Positions 16 through 39,429 of a stretch of 40,660 nucleotides of DNA are shown piece by piece. The notes under the pieces were generated by a model. The model searched no databases. It was not told where the DNA came from and saw nothing but the letters and a program-made list of their open reading frames with translations. Source of the stretch: a virus. The translations under genes and the position numbers were made by a program. Position 1 is the first letter of the stretch. The number at the start of each line of letters is the position of its first letter. The DNA lies in the UHGV virus genome UHGV-0383422. The stretch is one strand, 5' to 3'.

Positions 16-1266
16 TTATTCCCCCGCCATCCACTTCTCAAACTTCGACGGGGAGAACGGAATCAGATCCGTATGCTCCCCGTCAATCCATGAATCAATC
101 ATATCGGCCCACTGCTGCAACATGTAGGCGCGCTGTCTGGCGTATTCCGCTTTGTTATATACGGCGCGCACACCTTTCTGCTCATGTGCCAGAGCCTTTT
201 CAATCCAGTCTGAAGGATAACCAGCCTCATGCAACAACGTACTGGCTGTACGGCGCATATCATGTACAGTGAAGTCCTGAATATGCTCACCATCTTCATT
301 TATTATTTTCACCGTTCTGTCGATCAGAGAGTTCAGCGCGGCATTAGATAATGGCTTCCGGAAATTGTAACGACCAGGAACCAGATATTCACTTCCACCA
401 GCGCACATCTGCAACCCGACCAATATATCCTGTGCCTGTTTAGGCAGGTAAATAACGTGCGCCCGGCTTCCCTTCATGCGGTCTGGAGGAATTGTCCATG
501 TCCATTTTTTAAAATCTATTTCATCCCACGTTGCATTGGTGAATTCGCCCTTACGAACCATAGTGATAAGCACCAGTTTTAAAGCCATTTTCATAGTGCC
601 CATAGCACCAATGGCATCCAGCGTGCGGAAGAACAGGCCAATTTCTTCTGGTGCCAGTGTTCGCTCTCGTGGTTTAAATATGGCGATAGACGAAGGTTTA
701 ATGTCAGCCGCAGGATTAAACAAACCATGACCACGGTCATTGGCGTGACGGTATACGCTACTGATGATCTCCCTGGCCTGCACTGCTGTTGCCCGGCCAC
801 CGCGTTCGACAATCCGGTCACACAAATCACGAACCATCGATGTGGTAATTTCAGCCATCATTTTATTGCCAAGAACCGGAAGTATGTCACGGTCGATCAC
901 CGCCTGTTTCATTGCGCGGGTACTGTCAGCCAGGATGACGTGTTTCATATAACTGTCGGTATGTACCGCAAACGTCTCGGCACCACGAATCTTTTTGATA
1001 CCGTCACGTTTAGCCGCAGCCGGTGACTGGCCTGCTTTAAGCAGCTTCTTTGCAGCAATCAGTTCTTCTCGCGCTTCTGCCAGGCTGATACCGTCACGCC
1101 CATACTGCCCGATTACCAGTGTTTCGCGGCGACCGTTGATACGGTAGTCATAGCGAAACGAGACCGTGCCTGACGTAAGCACAGCTACATACAGCCCGTC
1201 ACGATCGGAGACCTTGTACAGTTTGTCCTGCGGCTTGAGGTTTTTTAATTTTGTATCGGTAAGCAC
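16..1266 (-). CDS. int: tyrosine integrase (P4-like phage integrase family)
   Basis: 416-aa ORF; C-terminal HDMRRT (HxxR) and catalytic-Tyr region RAVYNKAEY typical of tyrosine recombinases; located at the phage end. Confidence 0.9.
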   Translation of the reverse strand: MLTDTKLKNLKPQDKLYKVSDRDGLYVAVLTSGTVSFRYDYRINGRRETLVIGQYGRDGISLAEAREELIAAKKLLKAGQSPAAAKRDGIKKIRGAETFAVHTDSYMKHVILADSTRAMKQAVIDRDILPVLGNKMMAEITTSMVRDLCDRIVERGGRATAVQAREIISSVYRHANDRGHGLFNPAADIKPSSIAIFKPRERTLAPEEIGLFFRTLDAIGAMGTMKMALKLVLITMVRKGEFTNATWDEIDFKKWTWTIPPDRMKGSRAHVIYLPKQAQDILVGLQMCAGGSEYLVPGRYNFRKPLSNAALNSLIDRTVKIINEDGEHIQDFTVHDMRRTASTLLHEAGYPSDWIEKALAHEQKGVRAVYNKAEYARQRAYMLQQWADMIDSWIDGEHTDLIPFSPSKFEKWMAGE

Positions 1267-1307
1267 AATTCACCCGTATAGAAACCATTTTCATGACGGT
1301 ATGAGAG

Positions 1308-1324
1308 TATACCTTTAAGGTAAT
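1308..1324. promoter_or_regulatory. operator-like palindrome TATACCT-TTA-AGGTAAT upstream of int
   Basis: Member of the dispersed ATTACCT-N3-AGGTAAT family; 42-58 bp upstream of the int start codon; flanked by 9-bp inverted repeat TGACGGTAT/ATACCGTCA (1294-1302, 1323-1331). Confidence 0.45.
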
Positions 1325-1373
1325 ACCGTCACCTGTACCGACGAAAAATATGGTGTATAGTGAATAGAAATGA

Positions 1374-1410
1374 ATACATAAAAACAAAAACCCTCTGTTT
1401 TTACAGAGGG
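1374..1410 (-). terminator. rho-independent terminator after the lysis cassette
   Basis: Stem CCCTCTG/CAGAGGG (1391-1397/1404-1410) followed on the minus strand by TTTTTGTTTTTAT. Confidence 0.7.
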
Positions 1411-1583
1411 TTAAATTAGTATCTGAATAGGAATGAGTTGCTATGAGTTAGCTGTTAATCATTCCCACTCAATTATTTACGATAACCATAACCAATTGAG
1501 TGATAACATTTTTCCAAATCTCAATTTTTCCCGTACCGTTTTATATACCGTCACCGGAAATCAGTACCATGAAAAATGCCATG

Positions 1584-3662: not shown

Positions 3663-3689
3663 CCCGCAAAATATTGCGGGCTTTTTTTT
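3663..3689 (+). terminator. intrinsic-terminator-like hairpin oriented for plus-strand transcription, at the tailspike 3' end
   Basis: Stem CCCGCAA/TTGCGGG followed by eight T on the plus strand; on the minus strand the hairpin is preceded, not followed, by the T/A run. Confidence 0.45.
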
Positions 3690-6600
3690 AACGTTCTTCC
3701 AGAGACTGAATCCGCTCTTTTATCTTATCCATTTCTCTGCGCTGCCATGCTGCCTCGATATAGAATAAGAGATCAGGTCTGACCCCCCATCTAGATCCTG
3801 CTGGCGTTATTTCAACGCGCTCAATGATGTCTTCCATTACCATCACTGGATTATCATCCTCATCAACAATGATGCTCCCGTCATTATCAGTCAGCGGCAT
3901 TTCCCTTTGGCCAGTAATGACGTCATCATATACTGCGGGATAATCGTCATAGCAAAGAAAGGCATAGCGGCATGTTGTGCTTTCTTCTTCCATGAGTCCG
4001 TGAGAAATAAGAACATCACGAAGTTGCTGCGCGATTACACCATGATGTATCCTCGCCCCTTCTTCCCCCTTTATAGCGACAGCGTTCAGCCATTTATAAG
4101 CGATATACCTGACGTCACCCCAGGCATCCAGCAATGCTTCGTCAGGAGAGACCGGCTCTGTCTTTAATGTTCCGTCACTGGTAACCACAGGATTGGAGCC
4201 AAGATAAACTGTCGAGAACCTGTTTCCCGGACCACCAAGAGCATTTACATTATCAAGATAAGGTTTAACATCTCCGTTCTCAAAAAGATGTTCGAGTGCG
4301 TTATATACCGCGCGACGTGGAGTACTGCTTCCGGAACCATGCAACGTTATCATTGCACCATCTGCTGAAGACGTTGTTTCACCGCCGCTAACGATTAATC
4401 TCTGAGCGGTAACATCATCAGACGGTACTTTCTTCGCAATAATGGCGTAATTACCCTCAAGTTTGACTTCCGCGCGAACTTGTCCTGATGTACCTGCATG
4501 GACAGTCAGTGACTGGACGGCAACATCATCTGTGAAATCAACGGGTACAGGAACCGTCCTCACGCCTGACGTCGACATAAAAGTAGGAAGCGTTCTGTTA
4601 GGAGTGGCTCCGTAGACAAAATCCCTTGAAACAAATTCTTCCTGTTTAATTTTCACCCTGAAACAATACAAATCAGCCGGGTGACCATCGTGAACATAAG
4701 GATATTTTCTGTTGTTATCCCCTATGCTCCATGGGTTTAGAAAGTCTTCCCCACCGAAAATGTAGTACAGCCAGTTGTCTTTGATACAAACTGAACCAAC
4801 ACCAACTGCAGAGTTAACTATTCCGCCCTGATAAATCTGATCAGTAACATTAACCCACTCTACATTATCCAGACTCCACTCATTGACGTTAACTCTGGTC
4901 ATAAATGTTCTTGGATAATTTCCTGCATAACGGTTATCAGGTTCTCCTCCTTCCCACTCACCAAATGCGCGCTCACTGCCAAAAATAATCAGCTCATCGC
5001 CAACTTTGGCAAAAGGAAGGTTTGAGTGATGAACATTATTTGGGAAGCGAAGAGAATTCCATGATGTACCTAAATCAGAGCTTCTGTGCAATGAACTACC
5101 GGGTTGAGTACTTAATGTCCCCCTGGTCGTCAGATACAGAATGCCATCATAATATTTTACACATGGCTCAGATGCATTCGCCTCATATTCTGCAGGTATG
5201 CGTCTGCGAACAAAGCTACCAGGAGAACCGAAAGCATCAGAGAAATAGAGTATCCCAAGCTCGCGTGGACCAATATCACCATTATGGTAGCCAACAGCAA
5301 AACTGTTATCGCTAATCGTCGCAAAACTGTGAATCTCAGTAACAGGAGTGCTTCCGTCAACAAAAGAAGGAATAGTTCCAAGACTGGTTTTTCTCCATGG
5401 TGACGAGTGAAATGATGTACCAAAACTCCAGTATCTACCCTCGTTATTCTGATCCACATCCTGGGTATTTTGCGTCGTAACTGTAAAAGTATTTTTATCA
5501 ATAACAGTAGTCACCGTCATATTCCCGGTAACACCTGTAACACCAGAGTTTGAGAAGTTGACAAAATCACCAGCAAATAATCCGTGATCAGTAATGCGAA
5601 TATAAGCGACTTGCTGATTTGCTGCTTTCGTTATACCACCATAAGCGCGAAGGCTGCGACTCATTGGGCGATCCCACAACTCTGCAACCTGCAGTTTATT
5701 TCCGCTCACGGTCCGCGTCTCAATTACAGCAAAAAGGCGATTTCTGACAACCCCCATACTCATGCAGTGATAGTTAACTGTGGGATAGTTTTCATGTAAA
5801 TCTGTAAGCCATTCCGGCGTTGTCCAGGTCTTCCCGTCATCTCCTGAGCGAACCCATGCAACATGGAGGTTATTTACACCATGGCGGTCTCCAGCCATAA
5901 AAGGCGCATAGATGACATTGTCATATACAAACGTTTTATCCTGCGTCCAGGCGTTGTACCACGGTGTATCTGTAATTTTAAATAACTCTCCCTGGATAAA
6001 ATCTTCAGAAGCATAAAAAAGAGGCTGGCCCGGTATTCTCTCAAATAAAAAACGAGCATTTTTAAATCGACTGACATCCGGAAGAGTTGATACTTTAAAA
6101 GTAAGCCCTAATCCGTCAATTTTATAACCTGGAGATGAGGCTTCAAGGCACGCGCTTATTGCAGTGGAATCGTCATTTATACCATCACCAACAGCTCCAA
6201 AATCTTTGGGGCTAATAGCATCACGCATTTTATCCTGGAACGTTCGGTACACAGCCCCAGAACCATACTGAATAAACCAACCAAAACCACCAACAACCCC
6301 GGCGATTGCAGCATCGACATAATTACGCATTGAGCGATTATTTACAGCGTCCTGCTCAAATGATGGATCTGCAAGGTTAGAAATTTTGTTTTGCTTTGCA
6401 TCGTAATATTTTGCAAGCAAAGATGGTTTCATCAATGCACGTCTGAACCACCCAAAACATTGCTGGATCAGCATCGTCAGGTAGTCAAAGGCATCTTCAT
6501 GCACTTCGGGGAAAAATTTTCCCTGATTGCGAAGGTCTGTCTCCTGCACTACATCAAGCACACGATCTATCGTAATTCGCCATCCAGTAGCAAGCGGAGA

Positions 6601-6807
6601 CGGAAGAACCACAGAACCGCCACTATAAGTGCCCGCCCCAGTTACCGTATAACCGGTATCCAGAACCAATTCTGTTACGTTTCCGTTCAGGTCAGACACC
6701 TGAACAACCAGGTCTGATTTTCTGAAAATTCGAAAAGTATACGGAAACGATGTCGTAACGCCGTTACCAGTGTATTCGTTGTGGTCAACTTCGGTTGAGA
6801 CCGTCAT
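3688..6807 (-). CDS. tailspike, endosialidase-like (endo-N-acetylneuraminidase) with C-terminal intramolecular chaperone domain
   Basis: 1039 aa; N-terminal particle-binding-like domain; sialidase Asp-boxes (SGDDGKTW, SSDLGTSW); C-terminal region (LGSNPVVTSDG...RIHHGVIAQQLRD...) resembles self-cleaving chaperone domains of endosialidase tailspikes (recollection, not searched). Confidence 0.8.
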   Translation of the reverse strand: MTVSTEVDHNEYTGNGVTTSFPYTFRIFRKSDLVVQVSDLNGNVTELVLDTGYTVTGAGTYSGGSVVLPSPLATGWRITIDRVLDVVQETDLRNQGKFFPEVHEDAFDYLTMLIQQCFGWFRRALMKPSLLAKYYDAKQNKISNLADPSFEQDAVNNRSMRNYVDAAIAGVVGGFGWFIQYGSGAVYRTFQDKMRDAISPKDFGAVGDGINDDSTAISACLEASSPGYKIDGLGLTFKVSTLPDVSRFKNARFLFERIPGQPLFYASEDFIQGELFKITDTPWYNAWTQDKTFVYDNVIYAPFMAGDRHGVNNLHVAWVRSGDDGKTWTTPEWLTDLHENYPTVNYHCMSMGVVRNRLFAVIETRTVSGNKLQVAELWDRPMSRSLRAYGGITKAANQQVAYIRITDHGLFAGDFVNFSNSGVTGVTGNMTVTTVIDKNTFTVTTQNTQDVDQNNEGRYWSFGTSFHSSPWRKTSLGTIPSFVDGSTPVTEIHSFATISDNSFAVGYHNGDIGPRELGILYFSDAFGSPGSFVRRRIPAEYEANASEPCVKYYDGILYLTTRGTLSTQPGSSLHRSSDLGTSWNSLRFPNNVHHSNLPFAKVGDELIIFGSERAFGEWEGGEPDNRYAGNYPRTFMTRVNVNEWSLDNVEWVNVTDQIYQGGIVNSAVGVGSVCIKDNWLYYIFGGEDFLNPWSIGDNNRKYPYVHDGHPADLYCFRVKIKQEEFVSRDFVYGATPNRTLPTFMSTSGVRTVPVPVDFTDDVAVQSLTVHAGTSGQVRAEVKLEGNYAIIAKKVPSDDVTAQRLIVSGGETTSSADGAMITLHGSGSSTPRRAVYNALEHLFENGDVKPYLDNVNALGGPGNRFSTVYLGSNPVVTSDGTLKTEPVSPDEALLDAWGDVRYIAYKWLNAVAIKGEEGARIHHGVIAQQLRDVLISHGLMEEESTTCRYAFLCYDDYPAVYDDVITGQREMPLTDNDGSIIVDEDDNPVMVMEDIIERVEITPAGSRWGVRPDLLFYIEAAWQRREMDKIKERIQSLEER

Positions 6808-8047: not shown

Positions 8048-8408
8048 ATCTTGCTTTCAGGTGATCAAGCGTTAAACGCCACCAACCAAATACGGTTGAT
8101 TTTGATATTTCTCCGCGTTTATCATTACCTTTGCGGTAAATTTACATCGCACTCCTCTTGTGCCATAGTAATCGGGCACTGGCAAAATCCAGTGCCGGGA
8201 TTGGCGTCCCGGGTTACTAAGTGGCGCATACCACGCCAGACGTGGTTTTTTTATGCGTTAAGCACAGCTATATCCGAATTATGGTGGGCTGGGCAGGGGT
8301 CCGAAAGGACGCCGGTACCACTTAGGCCGGTACGCCAACCTTGTCCAGTTCACCACCAGTAATTGGCGTTGCGGTGGTGATTAAAATCACTAAGTGGAGA
8401 TAACCACC

Positions 8409-26384: not shown

Positions 26385-26706
26385 CCAAAGAGTTCATTCC
26401 GGTTACTAACCTGACTGGCTTGTCGTTAAATTGAACAGGTGGAGTGAGCTTTTATTTTGAGCAGTACGGCGTATGGCACATGCGCCGATAGCGGTCTGGA
26501 TACGTTTAAGGGGCACCCTCCCTTGCTCGGGCAAACGAACCAGGTAGCCGGAATGTGCAAGTCGAGCGGTTTTATTCCGCGCACGGGGATTCACCATCCC
26601 GGCGATTCGGTGTGACGCCTCGGAAGAGACGAGGGTACAACGATGAGAGCATTTATGGAGCCGCGACAAAGTGTGGCGCCTTAACAGGCTAAGTGCTCTC
26701 AGCGTT

Positions 26707-26783
26707 GTGGCATTAGCTCAGTTGGACAGAGCAACCGCCTTCTAAGCGGTTGGTCGCAGGTTCGAATCCTGCATGCCACGCCA
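26707..26783 (+). tRNA. tRNA-Arg (anticodon UCU)
   Basis: Folded by hand: acceptor GTGGCAT/ATGCCAC, D-arm GCTC/GAGC, anticodon stem ACCGC/GCGGT with loop CTTCTAA (anticodon TCT), T-arm GCAGG-TTCGAAT-CCTGC, discriminator G and CCA. Confidence 0.9.
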
Positions 26784-26826
26784 GAATCACGCCTAAGGAC
26801 CGTGATGCCAGAAGTTCCAGGTGCTT

Positions 26827-26868
26827 GGCGGTGATGGTTTCCCTTGAAGGACTATCACCGCCCTTTTT
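26827..26868 (+). terminator. hairpin terminator downstream of tRNA
   Basis: Stem GGCGGTGAT/ATCACCGCC followed by CTTTTT. Confidence 0.55.
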
Positions 26869-26946
26869 ACAGCAGGACGCCATTGCGATGACTTCATGCT
26901 GTAAACCAGTACAGCCACGGAAGGCATAACTCATTGCTTCCAGTTC

Positions 26947-26971
26947 GCCCGGTTCGTCCGGGCATTTTTTT
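26947..26971 (+). terminator. rho-independent terminator
   Basis: Stem GCCCGG/CCGGGC with TTCGT loop followed by ATTTTTTT; next ATG only 13 nt downstream. Confidence 0.65.
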
Positions 26972-26983
26972 AAGGTGAAAATC

Positions 26984-27316
26984 ATGAAAGAGAAGACTGC
27001 AGCTGAGCGCTATGCCGCAGCTATCAATGCCGCGATGGCGATTGTAAACCTGCGTGAAGAGATTAAAGATCTCCTTGCAATTATCCATAACAACCTGACA
27101 TGTACAGAGTTGCTTGGCGGTCAGTACAACGGTGAGGCGGTGAAGGAGGCATTTAAAAATGCCGAGGTAGGAATAATTCCAGCAAACTATGTCAAGGCTG
27201 AATGTGTGCTCCTAAAGGCACGAGTGAGTCTGCATGAAGATCCTGGTAATCTCGGTCGAACTGCAATGCGTTACGTGATAGACGAGTCGAATGCCAAACA
27301 CAATCTACCGAAATAA
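26984..27316 (+). CDS. hypothetical protein (110 aa), accessory gene
   Basis: ATG at 26984 with AAGGTGA Shine-Dalgarno; convergent with large terminase; palindrome copy just after the stop. Confidence 0.55.
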   Translation: MKEKTAAERYAAAINAAMAIVNLREEIKDLLAIIHNNLTCTELLGGQYNGEAVKEAFKNAEVGIIPANYVKAECVLLKARVSLHEDPGNLGRTAMRYVIDESNAKHNLPK

Positions 27317-35891: not shown

Positions 35892-35956
35892 TTCACCCAT
35901 AAGGTAACAAAAATCAAGGATAGTTACCTATGAGGTGCATTTACCTGTTGGGTAAT
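35892..35956. promoter_or_regulatory. operator cluster: three palindromes of the ATTACCT-N3-AGGTAAT family at the cro/cI divergent region
   Basis: 35892-35908 TTCACCC-ATA-AGGTAAC; 35923-35939 GTTACCT-ATG-AGGTGCA; 35940-35956 TTTACCT-GTT-GGGTAAT. Confidence 0.6.
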
Positions 35957-36010: not shown

Positions 36011-36595
36011 ATGAAAAGTATCCAGGACGTCCGCAGGCAAAATCTCAACGACTTGATCGACCGTGAATTCAATGGTGTTCAGACGCGGATGGCAGAAAAA
36101 CTTGGAACTCAGGCAAATCTGGTAAACCGCTGGGCTCTTGGCAAGAAGGTTATCGGCGACCAGGTTGCACGAAAAATTGAAGCTGCCGCCAATAAACCCC
36201 GTAACTGGCTTGATATTGATCGTTCGCTTTCTCAGGAGGGTTTTCAGCCTGTCGGCCCGAGCGATATAGGTCAGCTGGCGGCTCACAACCTGGAACGCTG
36301 GATGAGCGAAAGCCGCGACCTTTCAACACAGGGAAAACTTCACCGCGCATCCGGCGTCGCCCAGGTGACAATCAGCCGCCTGTTAAACAATGAGGTCAGC
36401 GTTTCCATTTCCACCCTGGAGAATGTTGCATCCGCATTCGGGCGTCACGGATATGAACTACTGATTCACCCGCACGACCCTGCGACTATCAACTATGACC
36501 GCTCACGCTACGCATTGTTACCCGAAACCGAGAAAGCAAAGATCGAAAGTTACATTGAATTTGTCATCAACCAGAACGAAAAAAGCAAACAATAA
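36011..36595 (+). CDS. CI-like repressor candidate (HTH; no LexA-type self-cleavage domain evident)
   Basis: 194 aa; HTH-like segments; no Ser-Lys peptidase motif; divergent from cro-like gene; own terminator. Confidence 0.55.
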   Translation: MKSIQDVRRQNLNDLIDREFNGVQTRMAEKLGTQANLVNRWALGKKVIGDQVARKIEAAANKPRNWLDIDRSLSQEGFQPVGPSDIGQLAAHNLERWMSESRDLSTQGKLHRASGVAQVTISRLLNNEVSVSISTLENVASAFGRHGYELLIHPHDPATINYDRSRYALLPETEKAKIESYIEFVINQNEKSKQ

Positions 36596-36686: not shown

Positions 36687-36715
36687 TTGACACCAAACCA
36701 AATAAGCATAATTAT
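36687..36715 (+). promoter_or_regulatory. candidate sigma70 promoter for rightward early operon
   Basis: TTGACA (36687-36692), 17-bp spacer, AATTAT-like -10; sits between terminator/operator and the first ORF. Confidence 0.35.
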
Positions 36716-36748
36716 TACCCCAACGGTAACAGACCGAGGTAACAAGTT

Positions 36749-39180: not shown

Positions 39181-39429
39181 ATGAAAGGTGCATTAGGTAA
39201 GAAAGAACTCCTGGCGGTGGTGCCACTGTCATGGAGCACTATCGACCGTATGGAGCGCGCAGGGGAATTTCCTAAACGCTGGTATATCACCGATAAACGC
39301 TGCGCATGGAACCGTGATGAAGTTGAGCGTTGGCTTGATGAACGTCAGGCAGCAAGCCCGGCAGAGTTCCAGGGTAAAAAGCCTCCTGTTCAGCAACGTG
39401 TATATCGTCCCGTGAGCAACGCTGCATGA
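39181..39429 (+). CDS. AlpA-like HTH regulator (possible excisionase/directionality factor)
   Basis: 82 aa; LLAVVPLSWSTIDRMERAGEFPK then WNRDEVERWL pattern typical of AlpA-type small DNA-binding proteins. Confidence 0.55.
   Translation: MKGALGKKELLAVVPLSWSTIDRMERAGEFPKRWYITDKRCAWNRDEVERWLDERQAASPAEFQGKKPPVQQRVYRPVSNAA

What the first reader, a model, noticed from the sequence alone, without database searches (positions are those of the whole stretch)
1294..1331. Nested inverted repeats upstream of int
The operator-like core TACCT-TTA-AGGTA (1310-1322) is embedded in a second, offset 9-bp inverted repeat TGACGGTAT (1294-1302) / ATACCGTCA (1323-1331), about 30-70 bp upstream of the integrase start. 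This could combine repressor control of int with integrase arm-type or host-factor binding.
Basis: seen in the sequence. Interest (0 to 1): 0.35.

Follow-up and report, generated by a model that had tools for sequence, protein, structure and literature searches.

The report
Integrase promoter region inside phage attP
The nested inverted repeat is real and lies in the attachment-site arm next to the integrase gene of an epsilon15-like phage, where integrase-binding repeats flank a repressor-operator-like palindrome; this layout is ordinary for such phages and largely already annotated in phage epsilon15.

Summary
The sequence is exactly as described: TGACGGTAT 1294-1302, ATACCGTCA 1323-1331 and TACCT-TTA-AGGTA 1310-1322, 28-65 bp upstream of the int GTG at 1266. 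As bare inverted repeats they are not beyond chance. Their significance comes from recurrence and conservation.

The window is an epsilon15-like (Uetakevirus) phage in the unintegrated order. The int-Rz gap is attP, with the published 17-bp core at 1457-1473 (target: the 3' end of guaA).

- **Outer arms.** These are copies of a 9-10-bp motif (GTGACGGTAT) found on both sides of the core. It is invariant across four host genera, annotated as integrase-binding in the epsilon15 GenBank record, and replaced by CATGGTAT in a more distant integrase clade. I read them as arm-type Int sites.
- **Inner palindrome.** This is one of 12 copies of TACC-N5-GGTA (0.6 expected), the family epsilon15's annotators call repressor sites. 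The window encodes a homologue of the SPC32H repressor Rep. The int-proximal half-site reads TATACT, a conserved -10-like hexamer.

Best model: an int promoter buried in the attP/attL arm, controlled by Rep and by Int itself. All binding is inferred. The RNase III hairpin annotated in epsilon15 gets no covariation support. This is a new member of a known kind and of low interest.

The parts
16..1266 (-). [quoted passage not shown]
   Evidence: ORF. Pfam PF13356 Arm-DNA-bind_3 (residues 2-87), PF22022 and PF00589. 98-99% identical to the integrases of ZX5 and phiV10.
1294..1302 (+).
   Evidence: This is the least conserved copy (TGTCGCTAT, TGTCGGTAT, TGACGGTAC, TGACAGTAC in relatives). An inverted copy 31-51 bp upstream of int is nevertheless common in more distant guaA-site integrases.
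1306..1311 (-). -10-like hexamer TATACT of the inferred int promoter; overlaps the int-proximal operator half-site
   Evidence: Read. The hexamer reads TATACT in most relatives, TATAAT in epsilon15 and TATATT in L097, so T1, A2 and T6 are always kept. The consensus promoter scan did not call a promoter here.
1308..1324 (.).
   Evidence: It belongs to the 12-copy TACC-N5-GGTA family. Epsilon15 homologues of the family are annotated as repressor sites. Matrix rank is 12 of 40,640. The half-sites are invariant and the central 5 bp vary.
1323..1332 (-). Arm-type Int site GTGACGGTAT (int sense); int-distal arm of the outer repeat; its TGAC is the only -35-like element, 15 bp from the -10
   Evidence: The 9-bp core 1323-1331 is invariant in all 12 phages of alignment A2. 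The orthologous 10-mer is annotated protein_bind 'integrase' in epsilon15.
1335..1343 (-). Degenerate tandem partner of the arm-type site (GTACCGACG on the + strand; 12 bp start-to-start)
   Evidence: This position is a perfect ATACCGTCA in the Klebsiella phages.
1389..1412 (-). Intrinsic terminator between the attP core and int; it stops lysis-operon transcription (phage form) or guaA transcription (prophage form) before int
   Evidence: One search finds a 10-bp stem followed by a T run. It is conserved in all relatives and annotated in epsilon15 and phiV10.
1457..1473 (.). attP core AATCATTCCCACTCAAT (reverse complement of attgagtgggaatgatt = last codons and stop of guaA)
   Evidence: PMC9782041. 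Prophage records break here into guaA. Homologous integrases lie 200-320 bp from a guaA stop codon.
1533..1554 (-). Tandem pair of arm-type sites on the other (Rz-side) arm: GTACCGTTT 1533-1541 and ATACCGTCAC 1545-1554
   Evidence: conserved. The orthologue of 1545-1554 is annotated as integrase-binding in epsilon15.
36011..36595 (+). rep, CI-like repressor; the candidate protein for the TACC-N5-GGTA operators
   Evidence: Matches PDB 5D50, the SPC32H repressor, at E 3.5e-42. Carries HTH_3. Operator copies flank it at 35925/35942 and 36654/36716.

Best explanation
[quoted passage not shown] The two outer arms are separate arm-type binding sites for the N-terminal domain of the phage integrase. 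The int-distal one (1323-1332) is the strong, invariant site. It has a degenerate tandem partner at 1335-1343 and is mirrored by a tandem pair on the other arm (1533-1554). The inverted copy is at 1294-1302. Between them lies a weakened copy of the phage repressor (Rep) operator, ATTACC-N5-GGTATA (1308-1324). Its int-proximal half doubles as the -10 hexamer (TATACT) of the int promoter. A terminator separates int from everything upstream, and int is convergent with the early-left operon, so int needs its own promoter in this 121-bp stretch. Inferred mechanism: in a lysogen Rep sits on the -10 and spacer and keeps int off. When Rep is inactivated, int is transcribed from a start about 1299, while the AlpA-type candidate excisionase is made from the Rep-controlled early-left operon. 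Int bound at the sites over the -35-like element and the start point then limits its own synthesis, as in KplE1 intS and P4 int. Shown here: motif families, positions, conservation, and co-variation of the repeat with integrase lineage. Inferred: all protein binding, the promoter and its start point, and the regulatory logic.
For: The window is an epsilon15-like phage. The attP core is at 1457-1473. Int has an arm-DNA-binding domain. The 9-mer has 6 exact copies within 746-1553, on both sides of the core, and tandem pairs with 12-bp spacing lie on both arms. Epsilon15's record annotates the orthologous 10-mers as integrase-binding. In 80 genomic homologues nearly all sit 200-320 bp from a guaA stop. 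Relatives of 56% identity or more carry GACGGTAT repeats upstream of int, and the 53-55% clade carries CATGGTAT repeats in the same layout. TACC-N5-GGTA occurs 12-13 times in each of four genomes against 0.6 expected, essentially always between genes. Seven epsilon15 copies are annotated as repressor sites. A Rep homologue is present. The int-site ranks 10-12 of about 40,000 positions. The block TGACGGTATTACC-N5-GGTATAnT is invariant in 18 relatives while the N5 varies. The -10-like hexamer varies only as TATACT/TATAAT/TATATT. Proteus prophages have a different operator type (AACC-N5-GGTT) and keep the arm-site layout but have no palindrome there. A terminator lies between the core and int. 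KplE1/P4 provide the precedent (PMC2951348).
Against: No sigma-70 consensus promoter is called in 1150-1700. The -35-like TGAC lies only 15 bp from the -10, so the promoter is weak or needs an activator, or lies elsewhere. One operator half deviates at the flank position that is 93% conserved in the family, and the site is among the weakest family members. The epsilon15 annotators did not mark it as a repressor site. All four genera share the same operator consensus, so an immunity-swap test could not be done. The int-proximal arm-type copy is poorly conserved. The int-proximal palindrome half also resembles an arm-type site (7/9 here, 8/9 in Klebsiella phages), so it might bind Int rather than Rep. 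No binding or transcript data were available.
Confidence: 0.6

Rival explanations
1. Only the integrase story is true. The whole block is a cluster of Int arm-type sites (three forward copies plus one inverted) with an embedded -10. The resemblance of the middle to the Rep operator is a by-product of the shared GGTA(T)/TACC letters, and Rep does not bind.
For: The int-proximal half reads tAAAGGTAT, 7/9 to TGACGGTAT. In Klebsiella phages it reads TtACGGTAT (8/9), giving three forward copies at 12- and 14-bp steps. The site is among the lowest-scoring members of the operator family. It is not annotated as a repressor site in epsilon15.
Against: The distal half is a perfect ATTACC. The N5 spacing is fixed while its sequence varies, which is the family's signature. 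The palindrome is absent from 72 of 80 more distant homologues that keep the arm-site layout, including Proteus prophages whose Rep uses another operator.
Confidence: 0.25
2. It is an RNA hairpin in the int leader that is cut by RNase III, as annotated for the orthologous 39 bp of epsilon15 (26874-26912), giving post-transcriptional control of int.
For: Epsilon15 has a GenBank protein_bind feature labelled 'RNaseIII, mRNA processing'. The predicted fold is -16.1 kcal/mol with z = -2.25.
Against: Across 10 distinct relatives there is no pair with changes on both sides. The 5' arm is invariant, whereas the 3' arm changes and breaks pairs (A.A, G.G, U.U). The paired fraction equals the shuffled control, 91.4% against 91.0%. 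The stem has only 9+5 pairs interrupted by a 7-nt bulge, which is short for RNase III (general knowledge). If TATACT is the -10, the transcript starts inside the 3' arm, so the hairpin would exist only in read-through RNA that has passed the strong terminator. No Rfam family matches.
Confidence: 0.08
3. The symmetry is chance in a conserved non-coding stretch and has no function of its own.
For: Inverted repeats of this size are expected by chance several times per window.
Against: Both elements belong to strongly over-represented motif families. They are conserved across four genera, while neighbouring non-coding bases vary.
Confidence: 0.04

Closest known systems
attP / int upstream region of Salmonella phage epsilon15 (GenBank AY150271.2, features at 26651-27207)
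   Same: It is orthologous sequence, about 82-84% identical over attP. It has the same core, the same 10-mer GTGACGGTAT at the same four forward positions, the same terminator and the same 38-39-bp nested repeat.
   Different: The epsilon15 record labels the nested repeat 'RNaseIII'. It does not mark its central palindrome as a repressor site, nor the inverted 9-mer as an Int site. Epsilon15 has one extra base in the spacer, TATAAT instead of TATACT, and TACCC/GGGTA instead of TACCT/AGGTA.
KplE1 (CPS-53) intS promoter within attL; also HK620, Sf6 and CUS-3 (Panis et al. 2010, PMC2951348)
   Same: int has its own promoter that overlaps the att arm next to the gene. Int arm-type sites overlap the promoter elements. 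The excisionase gene is transcribed separately (AlpA-family gene at 39181-39429).
   Different: KplE1 has no CI-type repressor module, and regulation there is by IntS and the RDF TorI. Here a repressor-operator-like palindrome lies between the Int sites. The integrase family and target differ (argW tRNA against the guaA 3' end). Nothing is experimentally shown here.
Satellite phage P4 int regulation by Int and Vis (Piazzolla et al. 2006, as cited in PMC2951348)
   Same: It is a P4-type integrase with attP adjacent to and upstream of int. Int binds near its own transcription start and lowers its own expression. The RDF is AlpA/Vis-type.
   Different: Sequence, target site and motif are unrelated. 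In P4 the second regulator is the RDF, possibly acting on the mRNA, rather than the immunity repressor.
Rep operators of SPC32H/epsilon15-like phages (ATTACC-N5-GGTAAT; repressor structure PDB 5D50)
   Same: It has the same core palindrome and spacing, a Rep homologue in the genome, and a promoter-proximal position between genes.
   Different: One half-site is GGTATA instead of GGTAAT, and the site abuts Int sites on both sides. Rep binding to this copy has not been reported in anything I could read; the primary SPC32H and epsilon15 papers were not held.
Lambda attP arm-type sites P1, P2, P'1-P'3
   Same: These are short repeats on both arms, in both orientations, some in tandem. They are read by the integrase N-terminal domain and bridged to the core with the help of bending proteins (general knowledge; summarised in PMC2951348).
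   Different: In lambda, attP is downstream of int and does not contain the int promoter. Lambda int is expressed from PI and PL.

Membership tests
Arm-type integrase sites of a heterobivalent tyrosine-integrase attP | The integrase carries a separate N-terminal arm-DNA-binding domain | tested here: met
   PF13356 Arm-DNA-bind_3, residues 2-87, E 3.9e-20
Arm-type integrase sites of a heterobivalent tyrosine-integrase attP | A short motif, different from the core, is repeated on both sides of the crossover core within about 150 bp | tested here: met
   The core is at 1457-1473. Motif copies lie at 1294, 1323 and 1335 (degenerate) on one side and at 1533 (degenerate) and 1545 on the other.
Arm-type integrase sites of a heterobivalent tyrosine-integrase attP | The motif is conserved among close relatives and changes with integrase lineage | tested here: met
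   1323-1331 is invariant in 12 phages. A GACGGTAT class and a CATGGTAT class separate by integrase identity, with the same layout.
Arm-type integrase sites of a heterobivalent tyrosine-integrase attP | Direct binding by the integrase N-terminal domain | not testable with these tools
   This needs gel shift or footprinting. It is only predicted in the epsilon15 record.
Rep operator family of epsilon15-like phages (ATTACC-N5-GGTAAT) | TACC-N5-GGTA palindrome with fixed 5-bp centre | tested here: met
   1310-1322
Rep operator family of epsilon15-like phages (ATTACC-N5-GGTAAT) | Flanks T(-1)/A(+1), 93% conserved, on both half-sites | tested here: not met
   The distal half ATTACC fits. The int-proximal half is GGTAtA (aTACC on the + strand) in all relatives. 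The site still ranks 10-12 of about 40,000.
Rep operator family of epsilon15-like phages (ATTACC-N5-GGTAAT) | Cognate repressor gene in the same genome | tested here: met
   36011-36595 against PDB 5D50, E 3.5e-42
Rep operator family of epsilon15-like phages (ATTACC-N5-GGTAAT) | The site follows the repressor specificity: present where the genome uses this operator type, and changed or absent where it uses another | tested here: inconclusive
   It is present in all four genera that use TACC-N5-GGTA. It is absent in Proteus prophages that use AACC-N5-GGTT, but those have no replacement palindrome either. L101 and L103 could not be typed.
Rep operator family of epsilon15-like phages (ATTACC-N5-GGTAAT) | Binding by Rep | not testable with these tools
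   The primary papers were not held.
Integrase promoter overlapping attL with negative autoregulation (KplE1 intS / P4 int class) | int is transcribed from its own promoter located between the att core and the gene | tested here: inconclusive
   The terminator at 1389-1412 isolates int, and a conserved TATACT is present. No consensus promoter is called, and the -35-like element is at 15-bp spacing. No transcript data are available.
Integrase promoter overlapping attL with negative autoregulation (KplE1 intS / P4 int class) | The RDF gene is transcribed separately from int | tested here: met
   The AlpA-family ORF at 39181-39429 is on the opposite strand, in the operon that starts after rep.
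RNase III processing hairpin (epsilon15 annotation) | Base pairing is maintained by compensatory changes among relatives | tested here: not met
   0 of 14 pairs change on both sides, and the paired fraction equals the shuffles.
RNase III processing hairpin (epsilon15 annotation) | The whole hairpin is present in a transcript | not testable with these tools
   This depends on the int start point or on read-through of the terminator.

The most novel reading that the evidence does not exclude
The Rep operator overlaps the invariant Int arm-type site by 2 bp (1323-1324) and lies 5 bp from the inverted one. Rep bound here in a lysogen could therefore physically exclude Int from the attL arm as well as shutting off int transcription. 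The immunity repressor would then directly veto excision until the antirepressor removes it, which would be a direct coupling of immunity to recombination at a single DNA address.
Probability: 0.12. Interest if true: 0.55.

Novelty: new member of a known kind. Interest (0 to 1): 0.25.

Why it matters
If the model holds, it explains how epsilon15-like prophages time integrase synthesis. These prophages are present in about 10% of complete E. coli genomes, and the one in this window carries a K1-capsule endosialidase tailspike. Their int gene is cut off from every other phage promoter. A repressor operator and self-binding sites packed onto one weak promoter would solve that problem. The model would also correct a long-standing 'RNase III site' label in the epsilon15 reference record. 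The layout itself (int promoter inside the att arm, arm-type repeats, dispersed repressor sites) is well precedented, so the gain is incremental.

Tried and rejected
- **Immunity-swap test.** I looked for a relative with a different operator consensus whose int-upstream palindrome had changed with it. Epsilon15, BUCT711 and Tyrion share the window's TACC-N5-GGTA consensus. The phage collection holds no integrase relative between 40% and 79% identity.
- **Proteus prophages.** Those fetched from IMG/VR use AACC-N5-GGTT but have no palindrome upstream of int. This is informative but not a swap.
- **First IMG/VR scan.** It returned only 98-100% identical loci, mostly cut at the int start.
- **L101 and L103.** The Pantoea and Buttiauxella loci keep a TACC-N5-GGTA near int, but their flanks were too short to say whether they are epsilon15-like.
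- **Promoter scan.** No consensus promoter was found in 1150-1700.
- **Rfam.** Nothing came near the gathering score.
- **Primary papers.** The Virology 2007 (epsilon15), J Virol 2013 and PNAS 2016 (SPC32H) papers were not held. What those authors found is known to me only through the GenBank features and secondary citations.
- **Alignment artefact.** A first MAFFT alignment misplaced a 1-nt indel. It was replaced by a trimmed alignment before counting pairs.
- **Single-palindrome reading.** I rejected the idea that the outer repeat is one palindromic operator for a dimeric protein. The two arms evolve differently, and their spacing is 20 or 21 bp.

Full report
**Observation.** The reported strings are present at the reported coordinates: TGACGGTAT 1294-1302, TACCTTTAAGGTA 1310-1322 and ATACCGTCA 1323-1331. 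The integrase ORF is 16..1266 on the minus strand and starts with GTG. More distant homologues have ATG at the same codon. The repeat therefore lies 28-65 bp upstream of int.

Taken alone, the symmetry is not remarkable. Perfect 9-bp inverted repeats with 30 bp or less between the arms occur 11 times in the window, against 4.7 +/- 3.1 in shuffles. 5-bp arms around 3 nt occur 50 times against 38. The case for function rests on recurrence and conservation.

**Context.** The first 2.2 kb match epsilon15-like podophages (genus Uetakevirus): vB_EcoP_ZX5 at 98.8%, phiV10 at 96.5% and epsilon15 at 83%.

For ZX5, phiV10 and epsilon15 the attP core is reported as attgagtgggaatgatt, 190 bp upstream of int, with attB at the 3' end of guaA (PMC9782041). 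Its reverse complement is window 1457-1473. Klebsiella prophage records switch from phage sequence to guaA exactly there.

So the int-Rz gap (1267-1583) is attP, and the window has the unintegrated gene order. An intrinsic terminator on the int strand lies at 1412-1389, between the core and int. It isolates int from the lysis operon in the phage form and from guaA in the prophage form. int is also convergent with the early-left operon at the other end of the window. int therefore needs its own promoter within about 121 bp, and the nested repeat sits in that stretch.

**Outer arms.**
- ATACCGTCA has seven exact copies in the window, six of them between 746 and 1553.
- Read in the int sense, the motif is GTGACGGTAT.
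- On the int side of the core there is a copy at 1323-1332 with a degenerate partner 12 bp away (1335-1343), plus the inverted copy at 1294-1302.
- On the Rz side there is a degenerate copy at 1533-1541 and a perfect one at 1545-1554, again 12 bp apart.
- The epsilon15 GenBank record annotates the orthologues of 998, 1088, 1323 and 1545 as integrase-binding sites.
- The integrase carries an Arm-DNA-bind_3 domain.
- Across twelve phages from Escherichia, Salmonella, Enterobacter and Klebsiella, 1323-1331 is invariant. The partner at 1335-1343 is a perfect copy in the Klebsiella phages. The inverted copy drifts.

A scan of one genome per species found 80 homologues, and almost all lie 200-320 bp from a guaA stop codon. 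Those with 56% identity or more have GACGGTAT repeats upstream of int: a tandem pair, then an inverted copy 31-51 bp before the start, often with a further forward copy. The 53-55% clade has the same layout built from CATGGTAT. A repeat that keeps its layout but changes its letters with the integrase is what arm-type sites should look like.

**Inner palindrome.**
- TACCTNNNAGGTA with one mismatch or fewer occurs 12 times against 0.43 expected.
- The broader TACC-N5-GGTA also occurs 12 times against about 0.6 expected, with extended consensus ATTACC-N5-GGTAAT.
- The copies lie between long ORFs. They are upstream of the tailspike, around the Bro-N antirepressor-like gene, before the portal and terminase genes, and on both sides of the repressor gene.
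- Epsilon15, Klebsiella phage BUCT711 and Enterobacter phage Tyrion each have 12-13 copies, including one upstream of int.
- In epsilon15, seven copies are annotated 'repressor, lysogeny', but not the int copy.
- Window 36011-36595 encodes a homologue of the SPC32H repressor, PDB 5D50, at E 3.5e-42.
- A matrix trained on the other three genomes, with their own int-upstream copies left out of training, ranks the int copy 10th-12th of about 40,000 positions in each genome. This is at the weak end of the family but clear of background.

The conserved unit is ATTACC-N5-GGTATA in the int sense. The N5 varies (TTAAA, CTAAA, CGAAA, ATTAC, CTTAA), whereas the half-sites do not.

The int-proximal half departs from the family consensus in the same way in every relative. 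There it reads TATACT (TATAAT in epsilon15, TATATT in one Superficieibacter prophage), which is a -10-like hexamer. The only -35-like element is the TGAC of the arm-type site, 15 bp upstream. The consensus scan accordingly calls no promoter. If TATACT is the -10, transcription would start near 1299, inside the inverted arm-type copy.

**Test against a relative with another repressor specificity.** Proteus prophages have a 62%-identical integrase and a 36%-identical Rep homologue. They use AACC-N5-GGTT palindromes around rep and have no TACC-N5-GGTA in 11 kb. They keep the arm-site layout upstream of int but have no palindrome between the sites. The palindrome is therefore not part of the integrase system. 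It occurs only in relatives close to the epsilon15-like phages: the four complete genomes and L095-L100, plus the untyped L101 and L103. A true swap, with a different operator at the same place, was not found.

**The RNase III reading.** Epsilon15's record labels the orthologous 39 bp as an RNase III site. The RNA fold is modest, at -16.1 kcal/mol with z = -2.25. In ten distinct relatives no pair changes on both sides. The 5' arm never changes, while the 3' arm does, giving A.A, G.G and U.U mismatches. The paired fraction equals the shuffled control. No Rfam family matches. With a start near 1299 the hairpin would not exist in the int mRNA. I rate this rival low.

**Model.** The module reads, in order, Int site (over the -35-like element), Rep operator (spacer and -10), then Int site (start point).
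- Rep would silence int in the lysogen.
- Loss of Rep would turn on int here and the AlpA-family candidate excisionase (39181-39429). That gene lies in the operon that starts at the operator-flanked promoter at 36687-36715.
- Int would then damp its own promoter.

This is the organisation shown experimentally for KplE1 intS, and reported for P4 int, where the int promoter overlaps attL and Int represses it (PMC2951348). What is added here is an immunity-repressor site. All binding and the promoter are inferred.

An unresolved alternative is that the int-proximal half of the palindrome is a third, degenerate Int site (7/9 here, 8/9 in Klebsiella phages) and that Rep plays no part.

**Verdict.** The feature is the ordinary attP/int-promoter region of a known phage genus. 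Its repeats are already annotated in epsilon15. The operator assignment and the rejection of the RNase III label are modest additions.

Noticed in passing
window 998-1007, 1088-1097 (int-sense copies) and 745-754 (inverted), all inside int: Further exact copies of the arm-type 10-mer lie inside the integrase coding sequence. Two of them encode R-D-G-I within the arm-DNA-binding domain. The copies at nt 172 and 262 of int are kept in most homologues down to 62% identity (both in Proteus and P. lundensis, only nt 172 in Pantoea and Buttiauxella), but not in more distant ones. Epsilon15's record marks them as integrase sites. It is open whether they are functional sites or codon coincidence.
   Followed up: partly
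window 1361-1373 and 1424-1436: The direct repeat TGAATAGRAATGA flanks the terminator between the attP core and the arm-type sites and is conserved in all 12 phages aligned. More distant guaA-site elements carry their own, different repeat at the same two places (for example GATAACGATTGA in Pantoea and CTGACTATCA in P. lundensis). These are candidate sites for an element-specific accessory protein such as the excisionase.
   Followed up: partly
window 1466-1479 / 1489-1502: The imperfect inverted repeat CACTCAATTATTTA / TAACCAATTGAGTG starts inside the attP core and extends into the Rz-side arm (I6; a 9-bp perfect part). It may be core-type integrase sites. The epsilon15 record places IHF sites here.
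   Followed up: no
window 6913, 8033, 8126, 9193, 26371, 29494, 33599, 33661, 35925, 35942, 36654, 36716: Copies of the dispersed operator family ATTACC-N5-GGTAAT lie between genes all round the genome, including before late genes (tailspike, portal, terminase), not only in the immunity region. Several abut a predicted -10, for example TATCAT|TACC at 8120-8129 and AATTAT|TACC at 36710-36719. This genome-wide spread recalls the stoperators of mycobacteriophage L5 (from memory).
   Followed up: partly
window 3688-6807 (-): The tailspike is an endosialidase, with End_N_terminal, End_beta_propel, End_beta_barrel, End_tail_spike and Peptidase_S74 chaperone domains. This is therefore an epsilon15-like temperate phage aimed at polysialic-acid (K1-type) capsule, unlike epsilon15 or phiV10.
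   Followed up: partly
L255 (E. coli GPEC1337 chromosome, NZ_CM142779.1 1347389-1352668): 543 of 5426 complete E. coli genomes carry this att arm. In several the full int-attP-Rz junction is contiguous in the chromosome, with three matching places per genome. That pattern is expected for tandem prophages at guaA, and the window itself could come from such an array rather than from a free phage genome.
   Followed up: partly
L112-L173 (genome-contig loci): A very widespread clade of 53-55%-identical integrases occurs in Pseudomonas, Betaproteobacteria and others. They sit at a nearly fixed 316-321 bp from the guaA stop, with CATGGTAT repeats in the same layout. This may be the GIsul2-type guaA island family (from memory, not checked).
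   Followed up: no
window 39181-39429 (+): An 82-aa AlpA-family protein (PF05930) is encoded in the early-left operon. It is the likely excisionase, transcribed separately from and convergently with int.
   Followed up: no
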